The notes beneath the pieces are model-generated. The model did no database searches, had not been told where the DNA came from, and saw only the letters and a program-made list of their open reading frames with translations. Shown piece after piece: positions 13,297-47,186 of a DNA stretch of 64,000 nucleotides (positions are counted from its first letter, which is position 1; each line of letters begins with the position of its first letter). Both the position numbers and the translations under genes were made by a program. This stretch comes from Diadema antillarum (Eukaryota): assembly GCF_040938485.1 (NCBI RefSeq), contig NW_027270954.1, positions 496,001 to 560,000 of the forward strand, read 5' to 3'.

Positions 13297-13302
13297 GCTG
13301 TA
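13297..13302 (+). repeat. Left 6-bp TSD of Maverick A (GCTGTA)
   Basis: GCTGTA immediately precedes the AGTAGT terminus and recurs at 47181-47186. Confidence 0.95.
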
Positions 13303-13701
13303 AGTAGTATTAGGATGTCTCGGGTGCCATAACTTAATTCTATTGTTTAGGACAATAGAATATGAAATATGAATATGAATATGAATATGATAGATCGATG
13401 AGTTATGAAATATGAATATGGGATATATAAATATGAAATTATGAGTATGAATAAGATATAAAATCAAATTAAAAAATTAATCAAATAAATAACGTGATAG
13501 GAGAACTGGAAAATGAATGACGTCACTCATTTAAATATTCATAAGGACGTCAGGAGCTTTATTCATTTGCATAAATGACGTCATAGGTTGTTTTGAGAAG
13601 AGAAAACAATAAAGAAAAAAAGAAAGGTGTATAGTGAATAGAGGGTGAACGAGTTGGGGCATGAAAGTGACGTCATGACATAGAACGCTGCATGAAGGTG
13701 T
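13303..13701 (+). repeat. Left TIR of Maverick A
   Basis: Reverse complement of 46782-47180. One mismatch seen (TAGGATG vs TATGATG). ATATGA-rich tract, three perfect TGACGTCA sites and one ATTTGCAT. Confidence 0.95.
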
Positions 13702-13786
13702 ATGTCAGGAGGATGTATAAATTCTCGCAGTCGACCATACTTGTTATCACTTTGCAAAAGGTTGGTTTAGTCATAAGAGGTATATC

Positions 13787-14248
13787 ATGTCTCAGTCTGA
13801 CGTTGATCCTGATAGTGAATGTTGCAAGGAGTTTCAAAAAACTGCGGAGAAAGCAGACCTACTCATGCTGATAGAGTACCTTACGTTGGTGGAATTGTTC
13901 AAGGAACTGAACAAAACCCCATCGAGCTACATCGACCAGTTAGTGTCGGACGACCCACAACTGAAAGTTCGACAAGCGGCTACGTACTTGGACCCTCAGA
14001 AGGTAGCCAAGTATTATCCTCATGCAGCCAGGGTGATGTGGATGAATCCAAAACTGATGGATCCATGCATGTTTACGGAGTACATGAAATATCTGCTCAG
14101 GAACGAGACAGTGGAGGATCTGAAAGAGAGACGGGAAAAACTGGCTCGTCACCTCGAAGGACTGGACGCCGCTGTGCGCGTCGTGTACCGTGCTATGGGG
14201 GAGGAGAGCGACCTGTCAGACAGCGTCATGAAGACATCATCGCTTTAG
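13787..14248 (+). CDS. ORF1 of A: 153-aa helical protein of unknown function
   Basis: Homologous and equal in length to B ORF1 (DLLMLxEYLTL, RHxEGxxAAVRVVYRA). Confidence 0.8.
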   Translation: MSQSDVDPDSECCKEFQKTAEKADLLMLIEYLTLVELFKELNKTPSSYIDQLVSDDPQLKVRQAATYLDPQKVAKYYPHAARVMWMNPKLMDPCMFTEYMKYLLRNETVEDLKERREKLARHLEGLDAAVRVVYRAMGEESDLSDSVMKTSSL

Positions 14249-14706
14249 ATACTTCATGGAGGGATGTCTTGTCAATCATCATTCGACAGACTACTACAAA
14301 ATCCTGTTTAAATGTGGATATGTCAAGAATATTTTCCACTAGTCAACGCATCATGGCATTGGAAGAATTTGAAAACGTGGAAATTGTCGAGCTAGAACCA
14401 GACGACTCATTCGAAGATTTCGTCAAGATTATACTTTCAAACTGTATTGGAAATGAGACACGAAAGAATGTACTGGAACGTGGAATGACAGCCGTTTGTT
14501 ATTTCTTGAAAATGTATATGCTTTCTAACCTGGAGGAACGATGTAAAGATGAACTGTTACTCTTGTTCACGAATGAACTGCGACGATATGATATACCATG
14601 GCCCTGTAAACCCCCCAAACGTAGTAAATTGCACCTGATAATGCACGTTATATTAGATGGGTTCTGTCAATTGTATACTGTGGATGTAAACAGAATAGCA
14701 ACTTAA
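13819..14706 (+). CDS. ORF2 of A: 295-aa protein overprinted on ORF1, unknown function
   Basis: The -1 frame stays open through ORF1. The C-terminal ~150 aa are homologous to B ORF2 (NCI, xCYF, RYxxxW, VDVNR). Confidence 0.7.
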   Translation: MLQGVSKNCGESRPTHADRVPYVGGIVQGTEQNPIELHRPVSVGRPTTESSTSGYVLGPSEGSQVLSSCSQGDVDESKTDGSMHVYGVHEISAQERDSGGSERETGKTGSSPRRTGRRCARRVPCYGGGERPVRQRHEDIIALDTSWRDVLSIIIRQTTTKSCLNVDMSRIFSTSQRIMALEEFENVEIVELEPDDSFEDFVKIILSNCIGNETRKNVLERGMTAVCYFLKMYMLSNLEERCKDELLLLFTNELRRYDIPWPCKPPKRSKLHLIMHVILDGFCQLYTVDVNRIAT

Positions 14707-14905
14707 TTGCATGTGTAAAACATTTATACGTATATTTCCGACAACTTGACTTTTTTATGTAGACTAGGTGATCAATAAACACATAGCATTAATGTACAAA
14801 CACTTGCTTTCTTCATCTTTTTATATTCAGTGTCTTTTAAATGAATGGGGTGAGTGACTTGCTGTTCATTGATGAGTTTTGTCAGAGGAGAGAGAAGACA
14901 GGAGC

Positions 14906-16006
14906 ATGGCGTCGTTAGACAACTTATTACGTAAAATCTATTACACGGCGTCAAACCAGGGAAGTTTTTGTGGAGCAACTAACTTGTGGAGAGCGGTTAG
15001 AGAACGAGGAATTGAGAATGTACCTCTTGAAACTATCAAAAGGTGGTTAGAAAAGCAAGACACGTACACACTGCATGCGCCTGCGAGAAAGAGGTTTGTG
15101 CGAAACAAAGTTGAGGTGAGAGGGGTCGACGAAATTTGGGAGGCTGATTTAGTCGATGTTCAGAACTTGAAAAAATATAACAATGGATACAGATACTTGT
15201 TAACTTGTATAGATGTGCTGTCAAAGTTCGCCTGGGTCGTCCCACTCAAAGATAAAACGGGGAAGAATATTGTTCAAGCTTTTCAGAAAATTACCAGTGG
15301 CGATCGCGTTCCCGAGATGTTACATACAGACAAGGGAAGTGAATTTATGAATAAAGAAGTCAAAAAATTCCTTAAGAATCGAGATATCCATTTCTTCACT
15401 ACGGAAAATGAAACAAAGGCATGTATTGTGGAAAGGTTTAACAGAACCTTAAAAGCACGAATGTGGCGGTATTTCACTTTTTCTAATTCATTCAAGTACA
15501 TAAACATTTTACAACAACTGGTCAAGGGGTACAATTCTACATTTCACACTAGCATTCGGATGAAACCGCTGGAAGTAAACATTGAAAATCAGCAACAAGC
15601 CTTGGATGCTCTGTACGGGGACAAACGTCACAGACGAAGAAATGTTATTCCCAAAGCGAAAAACTCTTTCCAATTCAAGATTGGGGATCAAGTTCGTATA
15701 AGTAGAAATAAATTGCGATTCGAAAAAGGATATGAAGCAAACTGGTCTGAGGAAATATTTACCGTCAGCGCTCGAAAGTCAAGGCGGATTCCAGTGTACA
15801 AACTAAAAGATTACAATGGAATTGAGTTAGACGGCACATTCTACCAAGACGAAATTGAAAAAGTGTCTAAAGCAAAGTATGAATTATATTCCGTTCAAAA
15901 AGTGTTAAAGACCCGAAAGAGAAAAGGAAAGAAACAATACCTAGTTCGGTGGAAGGGGTATGGCAAAGAATTTGACAGTTGGGTAGATCGGATTGAAAAT
16001 CGTTAA
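14906..16006 (+). CDS. INT: Retroviral-type (rve) integrase with C-terminal chromodomain, element A
   Basis: DDE motifs WEADLVD, LHTDKGSEF and VERFNRTL. Chromodomain YLVRWKGYGKEFDSW. Confidence 0.95.
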   Translation: MASLDNLLRKIYYTASNQGSFCGATNLWRAVRERGIENVPLETIKRWLEKQDTYTLHAPARKRFVRNKVEVRGVDEIWEADLVDVQNLKKYNNGYRYLLTCIDVLSKFAWVVPLKDKTGKNIVQAFQKITSGDRVPEMLHTDKGSEFMNKEVKKFLKNRDIHFFTTENETKACIVERFNRTLKARMWRYFTFSNSFKYINILQQLVKGYNSTFHTSIRMKPLEVNIENQQQALDALYGDKRHRRRNVIPKAKNSFQFKIGDQVRISRNKLRFEKGYEANWSEEIFTVSARKSRRIPVYKLKDYNGIELDGTFYQDEIEKVSKAKYELYSVQKVLKTRKRKGKKQYLVRWKGYGKEFDSWVDRIENR

Positions 16007-17855: not shown

Positions 17856-18440
17856 AGTAGTAGTATAGGTGTACGTATAGCGTCATAAAAATATGATTCA
17901 TATTTCTATTGTTCTAGAACAAAAGAAATATGAAAAGACAAAAGAATTATGAATTATGAAATATGGATTATGATATGATTTATGATAAAAAGAAGGATTA
18001 TGGCATGATTTATGATAAAAATATGGATTATGATATGATTTATGATGAAAAGATGGATTATGATATGGATTATGATAAATCGATGAATTATGATAATAGA
18101 TATGAATTATGGATATTTGCATAACAATAGAAATAGGAAAGAACAAAAGAATGTATGAAATATGAAAAATGAAAGATGAATATTCATGAGATATGAATTA
18201 TAGATATTGACGATGGATGATGATTATGAAATATGAATATTTATGGATCGATATGAAATATGAAGAATGAATTATGAAAAATATGCTATTGTTTTAAGAA
18301 TCCGCGTCATTGTTTCATCATATTCTTTTGTTCTCACATCGAGAGATATTTTCGAATGCAATGGTCGAAATGGTCATAATGACGATTGCAATCGTATGCA
18401 TGACATTTGTTTGATTTGATGACGTCACTCCGACAAGTTC

Positions 18441-18875
18441 GGACCTGTCCTCTGACCGACGCTCGCCCGATCGAAAACAAAAGAACTTTAAAAAACGAAG
18501 AAATACATAAAAATGGGGGCGTGTCCTCTGACCGACGCTTGCGCAATGCTTGCGCAATCGAAGACAAAAGTCAGGGCGTGTCCACTGACCAACGCTCGGG
18601 GACTTAAAGACAAAAGACTGGAAAAACAAAGAAATACATAAGACTGGACCTCAAGTTCACGATAAGTTCGGACTTGTCCTCAGACCGACGCTCGCACACT
18701 CAAAGACAAAAGACTAGAAAAACAAAGAAATACATAAGACTGGACCTCAAGTTCACGATAAGTTCGGACTTGTCCTCTGACCCACGCTTGTACGCGAGCG
18801 AAGACAAAAGAATTTTTAAATAAAGAAATACATAAACTGGACCTGGAGCCAGTGACGGGTTCGGACTCGTCCTGC
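18441..18875 (+). repeat. Subterminal repeat cluster of B (GTCCTCTGACCGACGCT x5; AAGAAATACATAA x4)
   Basis: Visible imperfect units. Mirrored at ~32905-33340. Confidence 0.8.
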
Positions 18876-18887
18876 ATAAAACAATAA

Positions 18888-19925
18888 ATGCCTCATACAT
18901 ATTCAAAGAGATGGTGGCGTCCTTTGGAAAGCAAAAGAATAAAAACTCGAAGAACATGCGAGAGGGACACATTTCAATTTGAAACCTTCCGAGAGCATCA
19001 CATGTTACAGAATGTCTCAGCCGAACATCGCCAACACCTGGTGTCCCGAAATGCAGAGGACGGTGGAGAAGGTGGACTTGCTGATGTTGACGGAGTATCT
19101 AACTCTCATCGAAGTCTTGAAACGGGTGCAAAACGTGCCAGATTCTCCAATAGACGGTACTCCCGAAGATCCACAGCGCAAAGTGTTCCAGGCGGTTCAT
19201 CATTTGGACCCAATGACTGTGGAGAGAGTGTACCCTTACGTTGGCAGGGTGCTCTGGATGAGACCAGATCTCGTCGAGTGCGGTTTTTTCCTGGAGTACA
19301 TCAAATTTATTCTGAGGGGAGAGACTCAACAACAGCTGGAACAAAGAAGAGTCAACATAGGGAGACACGTGGAGGGGATAGAGGCCGCTGTGAGAGTGGT
19401 CTACAGGGCCTTGGGGCTCGAGACCGGCCTGCCCGACATTGTCTTGACGGACCCTCAGTGGAACGTGCTTTAGACGAACGACTGCTATTAACGGTGATAA
19501 AGGACACATTTCCTTCCGACTTTCACGCCGTAGACACCGAGACAATCTTACGCGCATGTCGGACAATTGCAAGCGAGGAACAATTTTCCCGTGTGCGACG
19601 AATCAAGCTTCGAGGCAATGAGAGGTTCGACGATTGTATAGAGGCCCTGCTCAAAAATTGTATAGAGAACCCCAATCATCCCAACAAGTACAAACGTTCG
19701 CTGATGGCTCTATGCTATTTTGTCAACATCTACCAATATGCCTGCATACCGGACGAGCGGAAAGAGGAATTTCGCGCGCAATTCGTGGAAGGACTCAAAC
19801 GCTACAAAGTGCGCTGGTCGGAACACGCTCCGAAAATGACTGTTGGACTAATGTCGCGATACGTTTTACATTTTTGTCTGTATATGTTGTATAATGTATG
19901 GAATGTAGATGTTAATAGAATGTGA
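18888..19925 (+). CDS. ORF2 of B (left-arm copy), overprinted on ORF1
   Basis: Open frame across ORF1. C-terminus homologous to A ORF2. The start may be the ATG at 18888 or at 19002. Confidence 0.7.
   Translation: MPHTYSKRWWRPLESKRIKTRRTCERDTFQFETFREHHMLQNVSAEHRQHLVSRNAEDGGEGGLADVDGVSNSHRSLETGAKRARFSNRRYSRRSTAQSVPGGSSFGPNDCGESVPLRWQGALDETRSRRVRFFPGVHQIYSEGRDSTTAGTKKSQHRETRGGDRGRCESGLQGLGARDRPARHCLDGPSVERALDERLLLTVIKDTFPSDFHAVDTETILRACRTIASEEQFSRVRRIKLRGNERFDDCIEALLKNCIENPNHPNKYKRSLMALCYFVNIYQYACIPDERKEEFRAQFVEGLKRYKVRWSEHAPKMTVGLMSRYVLHFCLYMLYNVWNVDVNRM
19012..19473 (+). CDS. ORF1 of B (left-arm copy), 153 aa
   Basis: The ATG at 19012 gives the same length as A ORF1, with clear homology. 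Confidence 0.8.
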   Translation: MSQPNIANTWCPEMQRTVEKVDLLMLTEYLTLIEVLKRVQNVPDSPIDGTPEDPQRKVFQAVHHLDPMTVERVYPYVGRVLWMRPDLVECGFFLEYIKFILRGETQQQLEQRRVNIGRHVEGIEAAVRVVYRALGLETGLPDIVLTDPQWNVL

Positions 19926-20112
19926 ATTGATTCAAGCAACGAAATTCGCTGCACTGTGTGTATGCGTGTACAATAAATGATGCGTTTCATTTTCAAATGA
20001 TTTTTTTTACTCGTTACCTTGTCTATCATTGATGCCTTTTATGTCATTGCAACGTGAAAGGAATGCCATTTCTGATGTTTGCTTCTGCAGTGTGTGGTTG
20101 CTGAGACGAATA

Positions 20113-21204
20113 ATGTCTAATTCATTTGAGAGAGCGTTAGAGGAAATCTATTACGATCCTCAACATCCAGCTAGTTTCGGTGGTGTCAGTAAGTTGTGGA
20201 ATGCGGTGAGAGAGGTGGAAACTGAAAAAGCGAGCTTGCAGGGTGTCAGAGACTGGTTAACGAAACAAGATGCGTATACAATGCACGCACCGGCGAGAAA
20301 GACATTTAAGAGAAATGTTGTGAAAGTGAGAGGAATCGACGAAATCTGGGAGGCTGATCTTGTAGATGTTCAAAATTTGAAAAGGTTTAATAATGGTTAT
20401 CGCTACTTACTGACGTGTATAGATGTACTGTCGAAATATGCTTGGGTGGTTCCTTTAAAAAACAAAAAATCAAAAGACATTGTCGGGGCATTCGAAAGCA
20501 TCTTGAAAGAGGGCCGAGTGCCTGTAATGCTACATACAGACAAAGGTTCGGAATTCACAAACAGACATTTTCAGAAATATCTCGAGAAAGAAGGCATTCA
20601 CTTCTACACAACAGAAAATGAAACCAAAGCCAGCGTTGCTGAACGATTCAATAGAACGCTGCGAACAAAAATGTGGCGCTTCTTCACATTCAAAAACACT
20701 TACAGGTATCTCGGTGTAATAAAAGATTTTGTCAAAGGCTATAACAACACCATTCATTCTAGTATCGGCATGAAACCAAAAGACGTGAATATTGAGAATC
20801 AAAAGCGTGCCATAAAAAGTCTCTACGGTAGGGCAATGCGAGGGAAGAAGCGTAAAGCTCCACGATTCAAGTATGAAATCGGAGATCAAGTTCGTATTAG
20901 TAAAAGCAAACTAAAGTTCGAAAAGGGTTACGAAGCAAATTTTTCGAGGGAGGTCTTTACAATCAGCTCCCGCGTCAATAGGAGGGTACCTGTCTACAGA
21001 ATAAAGGATTACAACGGGGAACGAGTGAAGGGTACGTTCTATGAAAGGGAATTGATAAGAGTTTCGAAAGACAAGGAGACTACTTACAACGTGGACAAGG
21101 TTTTACGCACGCGCATGCGCAATGGGCAGAAAGAATACCTAGTTCGTTGGTCAGGGTATGGCAAAGAATTTGATAGTTGGGTTCGACACTTAACTCCGCG
21201 TTAA
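20113..21204 (+). CDS. INT: rve integrase with chromodomain, B left-arm duplicate
   Basis: Intact DDE motifs and chromodomain. Nearly identical to 30577-31668. Confidence 0.95.
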   Translation: MSNSFERALEEIYYDPQHPASFGGVSKLWNAVREVETEKASLQGVRDWLTKQDAYTMHAPARKTFKRNVVKVRGIDEIWEADLVDVQNLKRFNNGYRYLLTCIDVLSKYAWVVPLKNKKSKDIVGAFESILKEGRVPVMLHTDKGSEFTNRHFQKYLEKEGIHFYTTENETKASVAERFNRTLRTKMWRFFTFKNTYRYLGVIKDFVKGYNNTIHSSIGMKPKDVNIENQKRAIKSLYGRAMRGKKRKAPRFKYEIGDQVRISKSKLKFEKGYEANFSREVFTISSRVNRRVPVYRIKDYNGERVKGTFYERELIRVSKDKETTYNVDKVLRTRMRNGQKEYLVRWSGYGKEFDSWVRHLTPR

Positions 21205-21271
21205 AAACACGATTCACGTTACTCTCGTTATCATTCTTCGCTTTGAACAAAGGAGAAGAGGCTGATCGAAC

Positions 21272-21365
21272 ATGGCTTCTCAATTTTACGTGACGCTGCC
21301 CAGTAATAGTTCCATGTCGTACTATCCAAATAACAAAACGTGTCAGTTTACAACGCGGCTTCACG
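21272..21365 (+). pseudogene. Truncated duplicate of the minor capsid 5' end (31 codons)
   Basis: MASQFYVTLPSNSS...TRLH, then a junction into polB sequence and a stop after 3 more codons. Confidence 0.9.
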
Positions 21366-22954
21366 AACTACCTTAAGCCCAAGACAATCGCGCTCATTCC
21401 CCAGGAAGGGTATGGAAAGGGGAAAAGACAGTCCTCCTTAGCCGGAGAGTGGCTTCATTTTGAGGCACAGCTTTCAGGATTTCACATTCGACATAGTTTC
21501 AATGGTGGGGAAAGAAAAGCACACGGACGTTTCGTAGATGGCTATGCCGAAAAAGATGATGAAAAACATGTTTGGGAGTTTCTCGGGTGCTTTTATCATT
21601 CTATGGCGGGAGAACTGGAGGGTGTTCGCTCTTCTACGAGGCGAAGCCCGAAGAAAAAATCCTTTACTATGATTTCACCAGTCTTTATCCCTTTATCAAT
21701 AAGTTCGGCAAATATCCTGTCGGCCATCCCAGAATTATCTATTCTAACTTCCCTTCACTGTCTCGAATTTTTGGACTCGTCAAATGTAAAATATTACCTC
21801 CTAGACGTCTGTTTCATCCAGTGCTCCCCCATCGCTCAGGGGGTAAACTTACTTTCCCTCTATGCAGGACCTGTGCAGACACCTTGAATCAGGGGCCCTG
21901 CAAGCACGCAGATAGGGAGCGTGAGTTAGAAGGCGTGTGGGTATCGGAGGAACTGAAAAAAGCTGTAGAGATGGGGTATACACAACTCCGAATGATCGAA
22001 GTATGGCACTTTGACAGGTATACAGTGTACGATCCCAAAACAAGAACGGGAGGACTGTTTGCGCAGTATATAGACAGCTTTATGAAAATGAAGCAGGAAG
22101 CCTCAGGCTACCCCGCCCATGCCAGTACTGAAGAAGAACGTGAAAAATACATTCGAGATTATTTGGCCCATGAGGGAATTCAATTAGACTCTAAAAACAT
22201 CGCGAAAAACCCCGGTTTACGCGCCATTGCCAAGGGCATTGTTAATGTGTTGTGGGGGAAATTTGCTGAGAGACCAAATCTGAAACAAACGCGCTTTGTC
22301 AAAACCAGCGCTGAGTTGTTAGATTTCTTAAAGGATCGCACTATCGAATTACAAGACATTCTCGTTCTAAACGACGACATGGTAGAAATTCATTTCAATC
22401 AAGCCGAAGGCTTCGTGGACCACAACGTCAACACAAATATCATAATAGCCAGTTTCACGACGGCATTGGCGCGACTGAAATTGTATTCTGTCTTGCAGAG
22501 GCTGAACGATAGGGTCTTGTATTACGACACTGATAGTGTAGTCTTTAGAACAGACCCAACAGTACAACATCACGACCCCAAAACCGGCGATTTCGTTGGT
22601 GACTTGACGGATGAACTTGGTGAAGGCGAGTTCATTCAAACCTGGCTTTGCGGTGGTCCTAAGAACTATAGTTATCGCACCAACAAAGGCAACACCGTGT
22701 GTAAGGTGCGTGGATTTACCTTGAACGAGGCAAACTCCCTCGTTATAAACCATGACTCTATGCGCGAATTGATACAAGGTGAACCGGGATGTCTGAAGAC
22801 TATTGTGGAAAATAGAATTCTCAGAGACGTAAAAAGCAAGTCCGTGTACACTTCCGAGAGAAAAAAAGACTACAGGGTAGTCTTCACGAAACGAGTTAGA
22901 TTACCAGGTGGCACGACACTGCCTTATGGACACGCGGACATTCCTCGCTTATAA
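21366..22954 (+). pseudogene. pPolB: 5'-truncated, internally deleted pPolB of B
   Basis: 21366-21599 reads NYLKPKTIALIP...VDGY...EFLGCFYH. A frame-shifting deletion then leads to SFYGGRTGG...YYDFTSLYP...YYDTDS. No TP or exonuclease domains. Confidence 0.92.
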
Positions 22955-23066
22955 AGACCTCAATGTGTCTAATTGCCAATCATTCGCTGTTTATACATTG
23001 TCGCAGAAGGTGGTACTTTCTCATCAGCTCTGTACCTACCGCTGGCATTGTCGTTGCTAGGAAATC

Positions 23067-39303: not shown

Positions 39304-42300
39304 TTATGAAATATCCTTATGGCCATATGGTAGGGTTTTGGTTCCATCTCCAACTCGAACCCTTTTAGTAAAGACTACCCTGTAATCTTTTTTAGATTCG
39401 ATTGTGTGAATCGTCTTGGTTTTGGTGTCTCGGACAATTTTTGATTCATGAATGGTGCGTATTTCATCGCTTTTGGACATAACGAGTTCTTTGAGTGTGT
39501 CATGATTAATGACCATAGAATTAGTGTGGTTCAACGTGAACCCCCGCACCTTGCACACTGTGTTTCCTTTGTTAGTTTTGTAACTGTAATTCTTCGGTCC
39601 ACCACACACCCACGTGTGAATGTATTCATCATTAGTGGGGTCGATTTCATTTGTGAGATCACCTAGGTAATCGCCAGTCTTTGGGTCAAAGGGTTCGAGG
39701 GACTGATTCGTCTTAAAAACAACACTATCAGTATCATAATAGAGCGCCCTCTCTTCTAAGATTTCCAGAATTGAATACAGCTTCAATCTAGCCATTGCCG
39801 TTGTAAAGCTCGCTATCACTATATTAGTATTAACATTTTGCTCTACAAACCCGCGGGCGTTATTGTATTGCACTTCTATCATGTCTTCATTGATAACCCA
39901 CATGTCATGGACTGTAACGGAATCATCTCTAAAATACCGTAATAGTTCCGCTGGTGTTTTGACATATTTCGTTTGCTTATGATTATTCTTTTCAGCAAGT
40001 TTACCCCATAATGTATTTAAGAGCAATTTTGAAATGGCACGCATGCCCGGATTCTTCTCGATACGGTCAGGATCTAACGATACTCCTTCGTGATTGTGAT
40101 ATTTTTGAATGTAATTTATCCTATCGGATTCTGTCTCGACACTAGCTGGATAGCCCGACGACTCTTGCTTTATTTTCATGAAAGTATCGATATATTCCGC
40201 AAAAAGGCCCCCCTTGCATTCCCGTTTGTCATACTTGGTATATCGATCGAAGTGCCATACTTCAGAAATTTTGATATCGTAGTATCCTTTTTCTACTGCC
40301 TTTTTTACTTCTTCTGACACCCAAACGCCTTTAAGCGCTCTCTCGCGGTCCTCGTGCGTGCACCGAGTTTGGTTCAATGACTCTGCGCATGTAGCACACA
40401 GTGGGAAGGTGAGTTTACCCGAGGATCTGTAGGGGAGGACAGGGTGATACAAATCTTTGGGAGGAGTTATCTCACACTGGATGAGGCCAAACATTTTCTC
40501 GAGGGGTGGAAAGTTTGAGCGGATGATTCGAGGGTGGCCAATGGGGTACTTTCCAAATTTGTTTATGAATGGATACAGAGAAGTAAAATCATAGTATAAA
40601 ATTTTTTCACCCTGTTTTGCCTCATCAAAAAGTGAGCATCCATCAGTCCTACCACCAAAAAAAGAATCTCTTGGATTGAGGGGATTTTTGAATTTTTCGT
40701 GAAGATGCTGGACGCGGGCTTTCACAGCAGGATCTTTGATCTGCATGTCCCATTCATGCTCCCAGATGTAATGTACTATGTAACCTGCATTTCGGAGACG
40801 GTAGATTCTTTCCATAACTTCGTTATGGAGTTGACTCATTGATTTGTTACATCTTTTGTTGATTGTGAAGGGGTTAAAACATTGACTACATCCATGGTAA
40901 AAACAACCTAGAAATTCAAAAATGTGCTTTTCCTCCCCTACCTCGGCATACCCGTCCACATAGCGGCCATGAACCTTGCGCTCCCCACCAGTAAATGCAT
41001 ATTTGATATCGATCCCTCGTTCCTCAGCTTGATAATGTAACCATTTTCCAGCTTTAAGCGAATGACGCTTAGGGTTAGAATAACCGTCGTGCGGAATAAG
41101 GGCTATCTTGTTCGGTTTTAGAAAATTACTCCTGTAGAGATAATTACACGCGCTCGGAAGGGTGAGGCTGCGTAAGAAGGGATCGATGCCATCGGGATTA
41201 GCTTCTGTGGCACTTATTGTCTTGAAATGCAGGCGAAATAATTTACAACTTTCATGCAGTATTTTTACATCGCTCTTGCAGTACTCCAAAATTTCTTTTT
41301 GAAAATCAAACACAAAATTGTCAGGAAGGCTATCGTACCATGCATCAAATTCTGTCTTCGCTTCTTTCATCATGGTGTTTGTCCCGAAATATTTCTTATC
41401 GGGAATGGGACCAACGTAATTTTGATTATCTTTTACGTTAAACAGATGTGGGAAATATCCCTTCTTCAGCTCTTTGATACCGAAAGTTTTTGGAAGTTTG
41501 GCCAAGCCCATTTGGAAGAAGTTTAAGCTATCTTTAATTACGATTTTGGGGTCTTGTGTGCTCAGACACATGATCTTTCCTCCATTCATTATGACTTCGG
41601 GGATTATCCCTTTACGAACGAGGTGATTAAGAAGGAAATATGTGTCATACGCCTTAGCGTTGTGTGCAATAGCTATTGCCTTGTGGTTATCTTCTGACAA
41701 CAACCATGTACAAAATCGTTCCAGGGTGTCCTCCCCCTGAAAAGTGATCTCTCTTCCTTCATCTACATTACCGCACCAAAGACAGCCCCACCCATCGGGA
41801 GTTACACCATCCATACAGTTACTACAATCCCAGGTAGCGTGTACTAGATTAGGAACATGAGAAGTGGTATTCTGGGTACATTCAAAATCAAAGAAAATAT
41901 ATCTCTGTGGGTCTGGCAAATCAGCTTGCGTGGTAGGTTTTGATTTCTTTTTTTTCTTTTTCATAGCTGCAAGTTCTTTCTCAGCCTCAGTGGGGACGTA
42001 GTATTTGCTTTCTTTTGTTACTTTCATGTAGCATTCATGGGTGGGTCCATCGACATAATCTTTACATGTCTGACAAAATATCTTGGAACAGTCATGTTTA
42101 TCAAATATGCCTGGAAATACTTCCGAATCAAACACGCGCGCACATTTTAGGCATTTACGACGGGTCTTACAGGCAGTTGATCCCTTGAAAATTGTCACCG
42201 AATGAGCTTTAAAGCATTGCTCAGTGAGGAACGTCATGTTACAATCGGCGCACGTTCGAGGATCGCGTTTAATGGGGTCAGTGCGATTGCAATTTGTACT

Positions 42301-43059
42301 GAAACAATCGTAGCAGGTATTACAACAACTGTGAGTTCTGGGATCGTTGTAAACTTCATGGCATTCTTCGCACAAATGCTTGACACACAAGAATGCAGAA
42401 ACATTTTTGATGACATTATAATGACCGGATTCAGTCAAATACAAGTACAATGTCTTCTCAGCTGGGGGGCCTGCATATATCATGGCATGTTTTTTTCGAC
42501 CTCTGTATATGATCAATCTATATTCAGGTAGTAAGACTTGTTGAAAGGCGTCGTACTGACTCGAATCAACCTCTCCTTTAGGAACGCCAGCTAGATCGTG
42601 AAGTTTTGCGGCTTCATGAAGTAAACCCTTTGTGGGTGGTCTGTTAGTTCGAGACCAGGTTCGATATTTTCGATCATTATTAACGTAATAGCGCGAGATG
42701 ACAATTGCGCTTGCAAAACAGGTTTTTTCTTCTTTGCTGGAGGGAACGGTGATGATGGAAGTTTTTCTTATGGATGCCTCGTCATCAGGCAAGCCATCCA
42801 TTTTTCGCGTATATCCACCAGTGGGGTTTTGCACATGGTGAAATCTGATAGTAAAACCAGGTTTGAGGAAAAAGTTCTGGTTACTATTGAGAACTCGTTC
42901 TATCCGTTCTAATATAAGCGCGATGTCAAAGTGCCTGACCACTGCCCAGGGAAAAGCGATCGGAATATTCAATTGGTCCGAGACTAGCACCAGTCGCACA
43001 TAGTCTCTTTCATTCGCGTATCGTGAAGAAGGAGCGTTCGTAGCTCCTCGAGAGATGAT
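39304..43059 (-). CDS. pPolB: Protein-primed family B DNA polymerase, element A (main frame)
   Basis: Exonuclease FFDFEC, HNAKAYD and YCKSD. Polymerase YYDFTSLYP, KLLLNTLWGK and YYDTDS. Cys/His of a vOTU-like segment (CFASAI...GHYNVI). Vsr-like insert (VDGY...EFLGCFYHGC). The frame is open from 43059 but has no ATG near its start. Confidence 0.93.
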   Translation of the reverse strand: MISRGATNAPSSRYANERDYVRLVLVSDQLNIPIAFPWAVVRHFDIALILERIERVLNSNQNFFLKPGFTIRFHHVQNPTGGYTRKMDGLPDDEASIRKTSIITVPSSKEEKTCFASAIVISRYYVNNDRKYRTWSRTNRPPTKGLLHEAAKLHDLAGVPKGEVDSSQYDAFQQVLLPEYRLIIYRGRKKHAMIYAGPPAEKTLYLYLTESGHYNVIKNVSAFLCVKHLCEECHEVYNDPRTHSCCNTCYDCFSTNCNRTDPIKRDPRTCADCNMTFLTEQCFKAHSVTIFKGSTACKTRRKCLKCARVFDSEVFPGIFDKHDCSKIFCQTCKDYVDGPTHECYMKVTKESKYYVPTEAEKELAAMKKKKKKSKPTTQADLPDPQRYIFFDFECTQNTTSHVPNLVHATWDCSNCMDGVTPDGWGCLWCGNVDEGREITFQGEDTLERFCTWLLSEDNHKAIAIAHNAKAYDTYFLLNHLVRKGIIPEVIMNGGKIMCLSTQDPKIVIKDSLNFFQMGLAKLPKTFGIKELKKGYFPHLFNVKDNQNYVGPIPDKKYFGTNTMMKEAKTEFDAWYDSLPDNFVFDFQKEILEYCKSDVKILHESCKLFRLHFKTISATEANPDGIDPFLRSLTLPSACNYLYRSNFLKPNKIALIPHDGYSNPKRHSLKAGKWLHYQAEERGIDIKYAFTGGERKVHGRYVDGYAEVGEEKHIFEFLGCFYHGCSQCFNPFTINKRCNKSMSQLHNEVMERIYRLRNAGYIVHYIWEHEWDMQIKDPAVKARVQHLHEKFKNPLNPRDSFFGGRTDGCSLFDEAKQGEKILYYDFTSLYPFINKFGKYPIGHPRIIRSNFPPLEKMFGLIQCEITPPKDLYHPVLPYRSSGKLTFPLCATCAESLNQTRCTHEDRERALKGVWVSEEVKKAVEKGYYDIKISEVWHFDRYTKYDKRECKGGLFAEYIDTFMKIKQESSGYPASVETESDRINYIQKYHNHEGVSLDPDRIEKNPGMRAISKLLLNTLWGKLAEKNNHKQTKYVKTPAELLRYFRDDSVTVHDMWVINEDMIEVQYNNARGFVEQNVNTNIVIASFTTAMARLKLYSILEILEERALYYDTDSVVFKTNQSLEPFDPKTGDYLGDLTNEIDPTNDEYIHTWVCGGPKNYSYKTNKGNTVCKVRGFTLNHTNSMVINHDTLKELVMSKSDEIRTIHESKIVRDTKTKTIHTIESKKDYRVVFTKRVRVGDGTKTLPYGHKDIS

Positions 43060-44213
43060 CTAATATAGTCAAGAACATGTCTAATTGAAGAATGATCGGG
43101 TATATCTCCGACAAAGTCGTACCAGACTTCTCGTACGCCGAAGCGTTTATTAATTCGTGAATCTATGAATTTCCATTGAGGTGAGGCTGTTTTTGTAGTC
43201 TCATTGCTCTGGCTTGAACAATCGCTCTCCGATTCATTTATGTCTGACGAAGAAGTCAGTGGGGGGCGAGACTGATTGTGGGGTGGGTCTAAATGCTTTG
43301 TTTTTCTCTTTCTCTTGCCTCCGTGCTGTTTCGTCTCAGAGGGAAGATCAGAATTTTGTCTATTTCCTCCACTTTGTACATGACCACATGGAGTATGATG
43401 ACAGTTGTTATCAGAGTAGTCAAAATCATCGAGATCTTCGTCATCGTTATCATGATATCGGGTAAGGGGAGGAGGGGCATGTTCTGGTACGTAATTTCCG
43501 GGGGTACCATGAAAATGTGAAGGGCCAGGAATATCATAAATGTTATTGTCTTCTCCTTTTTTCCGTCTTGACCTTTGTCGGAGACTCAGTTTCGATCTTT
43601 TGAATTGGGAACCGCTTCCGATGTCCATTCTACGCTTCATTCCTCTTTGTTGTTTTGGAGAAGAGAGAGATATTTTTTCTTTTACAATTGGACATTCCGA
43701 TCGTTTTTTGTTTCCTTTCAATGAATCAGACACACGTCTTGCTTCCTTTCCCTTTGACTTTCTTCTTTCAGCAATTAATTCGGATTTTTTCTTTTTCAAA
43801 CCACCACCTTTCCCTCTATTAGAGCGGGGTTTTTCCCGCTTTCTAACTCGTGACTGTTGTGGATTAGGATCAACAAAGTCATCATCATCAGACCAATTGC
43901 AAACGGAACTAACAGGAACATTTTTTGAAAGTAATATTGGTTTCGACGAAACTGCTGAAGCGGCAATAACTTCAGTTGTAGAGGCGTTTTTACAAATACC
44001 CACATCTCTATCTGAACTAGGAAAAGAAACATCGCATTCACTTACCTCATTTTGATCTGCCGGATGAACGCTAGGAGCACGACGGACTAAATCAACTGTT
44101 CTGTTCACAATCCTTTGAATTTGAGAAGACGTGAGGTCGTACAAGTTTGAAATCGTGTTGGTTAGATTGTTTCTAAGAGTAGAACTGCGATGTGAAGGAT
44201 GGTTTTCATCCAT
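42984..44213 (-). CDS. 409-aa low-complexity ORF, probable N-terminal part of pPolB separated by a frameshift
   Basis: K/R/S/D-rich with QSGG and QHGG motifs. The C-terminal helical segment overlaps the polB frame by ~75 nt. Confidence 0.65.
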   Translation of the reverse strand: MDENHPSHRSSTLRNNLTNTISNLYDLTSSQIQRIVNRTVDLVRRAPSVHPADQNEVSECDVSFPSSDRDVGICKNASTTEVIAASAVSSKPILLSKNVPVSSVCNWSDDDDFVDPNPQQSRVRKREKPRSNRGKGGGLKKKKSELIAERRKSKGKEARRVSDSLKGNKKRSECPIVKEKISLSSPKQQRGMKRRMDIGSGSQFKRSKLSLRQRSRRKKGEDNNIYDIPGPSHFHGTPGNYVPEHAPPPLTRYHDNDDEDLDDFDYSDNNCHHTPCGHVQSGGNRQNSDLPSETKQHGGKRKRKTKHLDPPHNQSRPPLTSSSDINESESDCSSQSNETTKTASPQWKFIDSRINKRFGVREVWYDFVGDIPDHSSIRHVLDYIRSSLEELRTLLLHDTRMKETMCDWC

Positions 44214-46103: not shown

Positions 46104-46649
46104 TCACCCTCTCACATGTTGCCCTTGAATGGCGTCGTTGATGTTCTTAATCACCGATGTAAAAGCTCTGAATTCCTCCATGGTGAGCGTGATTCCCTTC
46201 TTGGTAGGTAGTTCTTCGTGGTTTTTCTCAAAGTACTCACGAATGTCAATGTAAGTCTTGCTGCGGAACGTCTTGGCCACGATGTACTTCAGGCGGTCCG
46301 GTTTCACGCTGATGGACACTTTGCAAATAATTTTTGAATCATCCTCATCTTTCGTTCCCGGAGTATGGCTCGTAGGTTCGGGGTTCCCCGTGGTCTTCTT
46401 TCCTTGCACGTTTCCACCTCCTCTCATTCTTTTACGTGAAAGATCAACACGATGTTCACCTTCTTCCATGTTTTTCCGCTTAGACGACTGGGGAAAACAT
46501 GTTCCCTCCTCCATATATAGACGGTCTGGAGAATAGTCCACGGTGCAATCACTCCCGACTTCCCCCTGAATACTGCTCATGTCTTGCGAGCCTTCAGGCG
46601 ATGGGGCTGATGGCGTGTTATACACGTAGTTGTAATAACTCTGCTTCAT
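46104..46649 (-). CDS. PC4/Sub1-like ssDNA-binding domain protein, element A
   Basis: TFRSKTYIDIREYF...PTKKGITLTMEEF matches the PC4 fold signature (IDIREY...P.KKGI.L). Disordered N-terminus. Confidence 0.8.
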   Translation of the reverse strand: MKQSYYNYVYNTPSAPSPEGSQDMSSIQGEVGSDCTVDYSPDRLYMEEGTCFPQSSKRKNMEEGEHRVDLSRKRMRGGGNVQGKKTTGNPEPTSHTPGTKDEDDSKIICKVSISVKPDRLKYIVAKTFRSKTYIDIREYFEKNHEELPTKKGITLTMEEFRAFTSVIKNINDAIQGQHVRG

Positions 46650-46781: not shown

Positions 46782-47180
46782 ACACCTTCATGCAGCGTTC
46801 TATGTCATGACGTCACTTTCATGCCCCAACTCGTTCACCCTCTATTCACTATACACCTTTCTTTTTTTCTTTATTGTTTTCTCTTCTCAAAACAACCTAT
46901 GACGTCATTTATGCAAATGAATAAAGCTCCTGACGTCCTTATGAATATTTAAATGAGTGACGTCATTCATTTTCCAGTTCTCCTATCACGTTATTTATTT
47001 GATTAATTTTTTAATTTGATTTTATATCTTATTCATACTCATAATTTCATATTTATATATCCCATATTCATATTTCATAACTCATCGATCTATCATATTC
47101 ATATTCATATTCATATTTCATATTCTATTGTCCTAAACAATAGAATTAAGTTATGGCACCCGAGACATCATAATACTACT
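46782..47180 (-). repeat. Right TIR of Maverick A
   Basis: Reverse complement of 13303-13701. Confidence 0.95.
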
Positions 47181-47186
47181 GCTGTA
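47181..47186 (+). repeat. Right TSD of Maverick A (GCTGTA)
   Basis: Matches 13297-13302. Confidence 0.95.

What the first reader, a model, noticed from the sequence alone, without database searches (positions are those of the whole stretch)
13787..14706. Conserved overprinted gene pair next to the terminus in both families (E1B-like layout)
Seen: ORF1 is exactly 153 aa in both A and B. A second ORF in the -1 frame is open across almost all of ORF1 in both elements despite substantial ORF1 divergence, then continues into a homologous ~150-aa domain. In A, the first 11 codons of ORF1 create five -1-frame stops (TGA, TGA, TGA, TAG, TGA) up to the ORF2 ATG at 13819, and the next ~143 codons create none although K/N/E/D codons are frequent. 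This points to selection keeping ORF2 open. The overlapped part of ORF2 is G/S/R-rich and looks disordered. Established: adenovirus E1B 19K/55K has this geometry near the left end. Inference: this is an uncharacterised early regulatory pair. The analogy is architectural only, and no sequence homology is claimed.
Basis: partly seen in the sequence, partly recalled or inferred. Interest (0 to 1): 0.7.

Follow-up and report, generated by a model that had tools for sequence, protein, structure and literature searches.

The report
Overprinted Bcl-2-like gene in Mavericks
In this virus-like transposon (Maverick/adintovirus) two genes share the same 430 bases in different reading frames, the second frame has far fewer stop codons than chance gives in both families in the window, and it likely serves as a loose leader that lets ribosomes reach a predicted Bcl-2-like domain that would help keep the host cell alive; one lineage has lost the overlap and has a start codon of its own for that domain.

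Summary
The overlap is real. ORF1 (153 aa, 13787-14248) and ORF2 (-1 frame, 295 aa, 13819-14706) sit between the left inverted repeat and the integrase of a young Maverick/adintovirus. Across ORF1 the -1 frame has 0 stops against 9.9 expected in family A and 0 against 6.8 in family B. It is open in 6 of 7 informative lineages. The seventh has three stops and its own ATG at the C-domain. The overlapped residues are loosely constrained: synonymous change is not lower than in the C-domain, and variation among copies favours ORF1. The C-domain model (pLDDT 78) matches Bcl-2-family folds at modest Z (up to 8.1), with no sequence-level support. A published adintovirus already carries this pair in supplementary data, ORF2 being labelled 'Bcloid'; other adintoviruses there have short Bcloids in the same slot. 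Best reading: a Bcl-2-like gene gained an overprinted leader and is likely made by leaky scanning from one mRNA. The E1B analogy holds for layout only, with roles swapped. No RNA evidence was available; ORF1 has no fold or function yet.

The parts
13303..13701 (.). Left terminal inverted repeat of Maverick element A (partner 46782-47180); 6-bp target-site duplication at 13297-13302 and 47181-47186
13716..13752 (+). TATA box (13716-13721) and initiator-like word about 30 nt downstream (13747-13752); inferred start of one ORF1/ORF2 mRNA
   Evidence: sequence; similar spacing in B and C by eye; no RNA data
13787..14248 (+). ORF1, 153 aa, helical, conserved under purifying selection, no family or fold assigned
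13798..13818 (+). Five -1-frame stop codons directly before the ORF2 ATG
13819..14706 (+). ORF2, 295 aa, -1 frame; homologue of the 'Bcloid' of adintovirus BK011011
13819..14248 (+). Overprinted part of ORF2 (143 codons): stop-free, loosely constrained, low in hydrophobic residues
14251..14613 (+). Predicted Bcl-2-like helical bundle (model residues 5-125 of the C-domain)
14626..14700 (+). C-terminal helix outside the matched bundle, moderately hydrophobic (19-residue mean 1.1); possible membrane anchor
14774..14779 (+). First AATAAA after ORF2; none lies inside ORF1-ORF2
14906..16006 (+). rve integrase with chromodomain, the gene that follows Bcloid genes in several published adintoviruses
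19002..19925 (+). Element B ORF2 (307 aa from the ATG 10 nt before ORF1; frame open from 18888), left arm
19012..19473 (+). Element B ORF1, 153 aa, left arm
31855..32892 (-). Second copy of the B ORF1/ORF2 pair in the right arm (ORF1 32307-32768)

Best explanation
The two frames overlap by 430 bases at the left end of a Maverick/adintovirus, selection keeps the -1 frame free of stops, and ORF2 is likely made by leaky scanning of a single mRNA, giving a loosely constrained leader followed by a predicted Bcl-2-like domain that would blunt host cell death. Shown: the overlap, the stop depletion, its presence in six lineages, its loss in one, purifying selection on ORF1 and on the C-domain, and weak constraint on the leader. 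Predicted: the Bcl-2-like fold and a tail helix. Inferred: one capped mRNA from the TATA box to the AATAAA at 14774; most ribosomes start at the ORF1 AUG (purine at -3) and fewer at the nearby ORF2 AUG (pyrimidine at -3; 32 nt after ORF1's AUG in A, 10 nt before it in B), so the Bcl-2-like protein is a minor product tied to ORF1. Inferred history: a short Bcl-2-like gene already lay before the integrase, as in other adintoviruses; it came to be started from an AUG at the head of ORF1 once ORF1's -1 frame was open, so the leader is the de novo part; lineage C went back to a short form with an AUG 14 nt before ORF1's stop.
For: Stop depletion: A 0 vs 9.9, B 0 vs 6.8; about 8-10 expected in each further lineage. 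Full-length ORF2 proteins from other assemblies: P0010 (295 aa), P0011 (291 aa), P0028 (313 aa); P0011 fits the -1 frame of ORF1 protein P0005 at 142 of 142 positions, P0010 fits P0006 at 141 of 142, P0028 fits the related P0008 at 131 of 165. These three, A, and the published BK011011 Bcloid begin at the same place, the Glu-Trp/Cys codon pair of ORF1 (BK011011 compared by eye). Stops fill every opportunity before that ATG in A and none after. No AATAAA inside the pair. Fold: the 19 best of 48,161 chains are all Bcl-2-like (Z 7.9-5.9, rmsd 3.0-4.6, 92-107 aligned), the first unrelated row has Z 5.7; best Z 8.1, rmsd 3.3, 96 aligned; best viral match is a herpesviral A9 protein (probability 0.97, E 0.056). 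Buck et al. label the homologue 'Bcloid', the name they also give adenovirus E1B-19K, and 5 of the other 8 adintovirus Bcloids shown are short proteins listed directly before the integrase. C-domain dN/dS B vs C is 0.158/0.844. Leader weakly constrained: dS 0.71 vs 0.84; among 31 copies 17 overlap variants are ORF1-silent/ORF2-changing against 6 of the reverse and 7 changing both. B and C are sisters (96/96), so C is a loss; 3 stops match the 3.2 expected if constraint ended at their split.
Against: No RNA, ribosome or peptide evidence exists for any step. The Bcl-2 match is below the level that the tool calls safe for helical bundles (Z under 13), Foldseek E-values are all above 0.001, Pfam finds no Bcl-2 in any of 8 C-domain rows, and the profile comparison with 7 host Bcl-2 pieces is not significant (E 0.19, within the shuffled range). 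The BH1/BH2 words (recalled) are not kept in register. The tail helix is only moderately hydrophobic. One variant call, P0027, starts a codon later than its 90% relatives. Lineage C shows the leader can be lost while the element's other seen genes stay open; its C-domain AUG is the fifth AUG of the message, so C needs another route (reinitiation, splicing or a second promoter). Searches by C-domain with length limits favour long ORF2 calls.
Confidence: 0.6

Rival explanations
1. The leader is a functional domain in its own right, for example a degradation or decoy segment like the long N-terminal arms of Mcl-1 or poxvirus F1L (recalled), and not only a route to the Bcl-2-like domain.
For: It has been kept across about 50% ORF1 divergence in six lineages; four-fold sites in ORF1 differ a little less than in other genes for A vs B (14 of 28 vs 355 of 506, p 0.03); Mcl-1 and F1L are among the best fold matches.
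Against: No drop in synonymous change against the C-domain (p 0.66 for B vs C), none for all synonymous sites in A vs B (p 0.15) or A vs C (p 0.60); leader identity falls to 25-33% between distant lineages; copy variants mostly change ORF2 and spare ORF1; lineage C lacks it.
Confidence: 0.2
2. The C-domain is reached by splicing or by a -1 ribosomal frameshift from ORF1, making ORF1-ORF2 fusions; the ORF2 AUG is incidental.
For: ORF1 ends in TAG followed by A in A, B and C, a possible splice acceptor right at the C-domain start; P0027 lacks the first Met.
Against: A splice to that site would not need 143 stop-free codons; the same TAG-A is forced by the Asp that most ORF2s have there; the stop-free run begins exactly at the ATG in A; a slippery heptamer in the right phase occurs only in B, of A, B and C.
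Confidence: 0.1
3. ORF2 is translated as described, but its C-domain is a helical bundle of another kind, or a Bcl-2-fold protein with a role outside apoptosis.
For: Z at most 8.1, no E below 0.001, no Pfam or profile support; Bcl-2-fold poxvirus proteins such as A52, A49 and N1L also appear among the matches.
Against: Three search modes rank Bcl-2 folds first, 19 rows in a row in the widest one; independent 'Bcloid' label and shared gene slot.
Confidence: 0.2
4. The open -1 frame is a by-product of codon use or of recent common descent.
For: T-ending codons are slightly rarer in ORF1 than in other genes (0.29-0.32 vs 0.34-0.40); lineages share ancestry.
Against: P(0) 2.5e-6 in A and 3.9e-4 in B with context-matched codon use; longest stop-free -1 run in any other gene is 75 codons; third positions of A and B are largely saturated; C gained stops at the neutral rate.
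Confidence: 0.02

Closest known systems
Adintovirus BK011011 (endogenous sea-urchin adintovirus) 'Bcloid' and the 'hypothetical protein' listed next to it; Buck et al. 2024, PMC11071296, supplementary files 1 and 2 (passages seen)
   Same: By eye, the hypothetical protein is an ORF1 homologue and the Bcloid is a full-length ORF2 homologue with the overprinted leader, the same start point and the same C-terminal word; its ATPase, GasderminX, Adintoc2, PC4-like and PolB entries resemble this element's genes.
   Different: The overlap is not discussed in the passages found in the main text ('Bcloid' occurs 0 times; the 2 'overprinted' passages concern another virus and a reference). No stop-depletion test and no lineage that lost the overlap were seen there. 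The comparison was not run in a tool.
Short adintovirus Bcl2/Bcloid genes before the integrase (Starrett et al. 2021, PMC8502044, sections 7 and passages of 8, Fig. S2 text; Buck et al. 2024 supplementary file 2)
   Same: Same slot in the gene order (Bcl2, integrase, penton, cupiennin, hexon, protease) and the same predicted fold class.
   Different: Those shown are about 80-200 aa with their own start and no long leader, and several follow Adintoc5, which does not resemble ORF1 by eye. Lineage C here is in this short state.
Adenovirus E1B 19K/55K
   Same: Two proteins from one left-end unit, one a Bcl-2 homologue that binds BAX/BAK BH3 (PMC8449131, passages); overlap in different frames and use of a second AUG are recalled, not read. 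E1B-19K models appear among weak fold matches (E 0.8-1.4).
   Different: Here the Bcl-2-like part is in the second, long ORF; there is no beta-helix like 55K (the C-domain model is all helix); ORF1 shows no Bcl-2 likeness; nearly all of ORF1 is overlapped.
Poxvirus F1L / DPV022 and Mcl-1
   Same: Best structural matches (Z 8.1, 7.9, 7.9); long N-terminal arm, bundle, C-terminal helix (architecture recalled).
   Different: 4-14% identity; their arms are not overprinted on another gene (recalled).

Membership tests
Maverick/Polinton (adintovirus) | Terminal inverted repeats starting AG and a 6-bp target duplication | tested here: met
   399-nt repeats and a 6-bp duplication for A; 6-bp duplication for B
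Maverick/Polinton (adintovirus) | PolB, rve integrase with chromodomain, packaging ATPase, adenain-type protease | tested here: met
   PF03175 E 3.8e-48, PF00665 E 2.2e-12, PF00385, PF04665, PF00770
Maverick/Polinton (adintovirus) | Hexon and penton capsid genes | tested here: inconclusive
   No Pfam hit for the 258-aa and 443-aa ORFs; named only from gene order
Overprinted gene pair | Second frame open beyond chance in independent lineages | tested here: met
   6 of 7 informative lineages open
Overprinted gene pair | Suppressed synonymous variation in the overlap | tested here: not met
   dS 0.71 vs 0.84, p 0.66; B vs C includes a branch on which the frame is closed, which weakens the test
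Overprinted gene pair | Both frames shown to be translated | not testable with these tools
   No RNA holder listed
Bcl-2 family | Helical bundle of the Bcl-2 fold | tested here: inconclusive
   Consistently top-ranked but Z at most 8.1 and E above 0.001
Bcl-2 family | Sequence match to PF00452 / BH1-BH2 motifs | tested here: not met
   0 of 8 rows hit PF00452 at E up to 1; profile comparison E 0.19
Bcl-2 family | C-terminal membrane anchor | tested here: inconclusive
   Terminal helix, 19-residue hydropathy 1.07-1.43 in 5 of 5 ORF2s
Bcl-2 family | BH3 binding and control of apoptosis | not testable with these tools
   Needs binding and cell assays
Adenovirus E1B unit | First ORF is the Bcl-2 homologue | tested here: inconclusive
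   ORF1 model pLDDT 49; no Bcl-2 rows among the 50 shown; profile E 0.61
Adenovirus E1B unit | Second ORF has a 55K-type beta-helix | tested here: not met
   C-domain model is all-helical, pLDDT 78

The most novel reading that the evidence does not exclude
A clade of Mavericks rewired a captured Bcl-2-like gene by threading its start through the whole -1 frame of the upstream gene, arriving independently at an E1B-like bicistronic unit with the roles swapped and at an Mcl-1/F1L-like protein with a de novo arm; the unit moves between elements as a cassette, is doubled in both arms of many copies, and can revert to a short form, so birth and loss of an overprinted segment can be read within one genome.
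Probability: 0.4. Interest if true: 0.65.

Novelty: new variant of a known kind. Interest (0 to 1): 0.5.

Why it matters
Mavericks are read mostly from DNA, and annotation pipelines drop long overlaps, so a frame kept open by selection is indirect evidence of non-canonical translation in these elements and a warning that ORF2 is often called short. It gives a dated natural series (long in six lineages, short in one) for how overprinting extends an existing gene and how it is lost. It also ties a very divergent Bcl-2-like protein, which Pfam misses, to young, multi-copy elements, which makes the question of whether Mavericks must block host cell death testable with two small natural genes. The family, the gene slot and the Bcl-2 label are already in print in supplementary data, which limits the surprise.

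Tried and rejected
Expression: no RNA holder listed; contigs of unknown kind were laid and show no splice-type joint; this says nothing on expression. One contig in runs X1/X3 shares 32 of the 40 shown differences with lineage C, but the rows that would tell its -1 stops were among the 79 not shown, so it was not counted. Complex prediction of the C-domain with a host Bak-like BH3 stretch gave no verdict. ORF1 model was poor (pLDDT 49) and its fold searches were uninformative (best Z 5.7; best E 0.91); no solved-structure hit by sequence for either family; the Prp19 hit is below cut-off. The Atlas could not be used. No related DNA loci in viral or metagenome contigs. Lineage E (L031/L032, about 30% identity) has its C-domain in the -1 frame and several -1 stops, but it is decayed and was left out of the count. 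ORF2 was not seen for P0007, P0009, P0012, P0013, P0015, so these were not counted. The short calls P0021 and P0026 may be gene-caller choices. The ORF1/ORF2 profile hit comes from the frameshifted row P0019 and was dismissed. BH3-like and RxDL-like words in ORF1 (recalled motifs) are out of register or not conserved and were dropped. The similar first residues of ORF2 in A and B come from non-homologous positions and were treated as chance. Literature: searches gave no paper that describes this overlap; subscription papers are not covered, three supplementary archives of PMC11071296 were too large, two were cut, and slides and sequence files of PMC8502044 could not be read, so a description may exist there.

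Full report
Setting. The window holds two nested Mavericks/Polintons in a 1.75-Gb animal genome. Element A runs 13303-47180 with 399-nt inverted repeats and a 6-bp target duplication; element B (17856-33920) is inserted in it. PolB, rve integrase with chromodomain, packaging ATPase and adenain-type protease are found by Pfam. The pair in question is the first unit inside A's left end, directly before the integrase. The genome gave 81 ORF1 matches and 71 C-domain matches: 18 of A type, of which 16 have the 295-codon ORF2 frame, 52 of B type, of which 42 have the 345-codon frame, and 1 of a third type, C.

Frames, lengths and the five stops are as stated. With each element's own codon use, and counting only places where a T-ending codon could make a -1 stop, A should have 9.9 stops after the ORF2 ATG and has 0 of 30 (P 2.5e-6); B should have 6.8 and has 0 of 32 (P 3.9e-4). 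In the other genes the -1 frame has 0.067-0.085 stops per codon and the longest clear run is 75 codons. The equal length of 153 aa is chance.

Other lineages. Protein searches gave 5 and then 10 ORF1 relatives and full-length ORF2 relatives of 291, 295 and 313 aa. Two are almost exactly the -1 frames of known ORF1 proteins (142 of 142, 141 of 142) and the third fits a near relative (131 of 165). All start at the same codon pair as A. A supplement of Buck et al. 2024 lists the same pair for adintovirus BK011011, with ORF2 at full length (compared by eye). So the frame is open in A, two A-like lineages, D, B and BK011011. Lineage C (one copy, 80% DNA identity to B, neighbouring genes open) has three TGA stops over ORF1, ACG where B has its ORF2 ATG, and an ATG in strong context at the start of the C-domain. 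B and C are sisters, so C is a loss, and three stops are what neutral change since the split predicts (3.2). Decayed lineage E and five ORF1 proteins without a seen ORF2 were left out of the 6-of-7 count.

What is selected. ORF1 (dN 0.067, dS 0.71) and the C-domain (dN 0.158, dS 0.84) are under purifying selection between B and C, but synonymous change is not lower in the overlap (p 0.66). Among 31 fetched copies, distinct overlap variants are 17 silent in ORF1 and changing in ORF2, 6 the reverse, 7 changing both (p 0.035 for 17 vs 6). The leader falls to 25-33% identity between distant lineages. Selection therefore keeps the frame open more than it keeps the residues. ORF1 is the constrained frame, the leader the overprinted one.

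What the C-domain is. An 8-row alignment gave a helical model with pLDDT 78. Against 48,161 chains the 19 best are all Bcl-2-like (Z 7.9-5.9) and the first unrelated one has Z 5.7; a second look gives poxvirus F1L Z 8.1 and Mcl-1 Z 7.9; Foldseek ranks Mcl-1 (E 0.31) and a herpesviral A9 protein (E 0.056) first. These scores are modest for a helical bundle, and sequence tests fail. Two outside facts raise the odds: the homologue is labelled 'Bcloid' by Buck et al., and of the 8 other adintovirus Bcloids shown (18 of 28 places read there, 5 more), 5 are short proteins listed directly before the integrase. Starrett et al. note Bcl2 homologues in adintoviruses (passage) and draw a Bcl2 label before the integrase (Fig. 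S2 text). I put a Bcl-2 fold at about 0.8 and an anti-death role at about 0.6. ORF1 stays unassigned.

How it likely works (inferred). A TATA box at 13716 with an initiator-like word 30 nt on, no poly(A) signal inside the pair and one at 14774 suggest a single mRNA. ORF1's AUG has a purine at -3; ORF2's has a pyrimidine in both A and B and lies within 32 nt of ORF1's, after it in A and before it in B. Leaky scanning would give much ORF1 and less ORF2. The leader lets a downstream gene use a cap-proximal start. In C the C-domain AUG lies 14 nt before ORF1's stop and would need reinitiation, splicing or its own promoter. No RNA run was listed, so none of this is shown.

Against the E1B analogy. 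The likeness is in layout and in the presence of a Bcl-2-type protein (E1B-19K as Bcl-2 homologue: PMC8449131, passages; the E1B overlap itself is recalled). The order is reversed and there is no 55K-type beta-helix. It is not an E1B member.

Papers seen. PMC8502044: section 7, passages of sections 8, 9, 12, text of Fig. S2. PMC11071296 and its bioRxiv copy: passages and supplement passages. PMC8449131, PMC6431247, PMC9499273: passages. Others: search listings only. Earlier scan notes on Bcl-2 cargo in Mavericks were not checked and are not counted as support.

Verdict. A real, selected overprint and a new variant of a known adintovirus gene. The pair is already listed in a supplement, but the overlap, its statistics and its loss in one lineage were not found described in the searches named. 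Interest 0.5.

Noticed in passing
window 17856-33920: Element B is inserted in element A's major-capsid-type gene with a 6-bp target duplication, and has 3.5-kb inverted arms that each carry ORF1, ORF2 and the integrase, with only part of PolB between them.
   Followed up: partly
G000, ORF1 hits: Among 72 ORF1 hits examined, 13 head-to-head pairs lie within 35 kb, 9 of them 9.7-15.5 kb apart: many copies seem to carry the pair in both arms, recalling earlier notes on palindromic Polinton derivatives with Bcl-2 in each arm.
   Followed up: partly
L033 versus window B: The ORF1/ORF2 cassette is far less diverged between B and C (dS 0.7-0.8) than integrase, capsid and protease genes (saturated; p 2e-7), so it was likely exchanged as a module.
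   Followed up: partly
window 39304-44213 (-): The 409-aa ORF and the 1165-aa PolB ORF lie in different frames; by eye the 409-aa ORF resembles the start of BK011011 PolB, so this copy's PolB appears split.
   Followed up: no
ORF1 of A, B, C: Out-of-frame (+1) AUGs are scarce: 1, 0, 0 against 5.7, 4.0, 4.7 expected; part of this follows from stop avoidance.
   Followed up: partly
L034 (G000:C633): A B-type copy has a deletion that joins ORF1 in frame to the C-domain, giving a 271-codon open frame.
   Followed up: no
window 13822: A common variant (9 of 18 A copies) puts G after the ORF2 ATG and keeps the ATG.
   Followed up: no
window 46104-46649 (-): PC4-domain gene at the right end of element A (PF02229, E 2.6e-15).
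   Followed up: no
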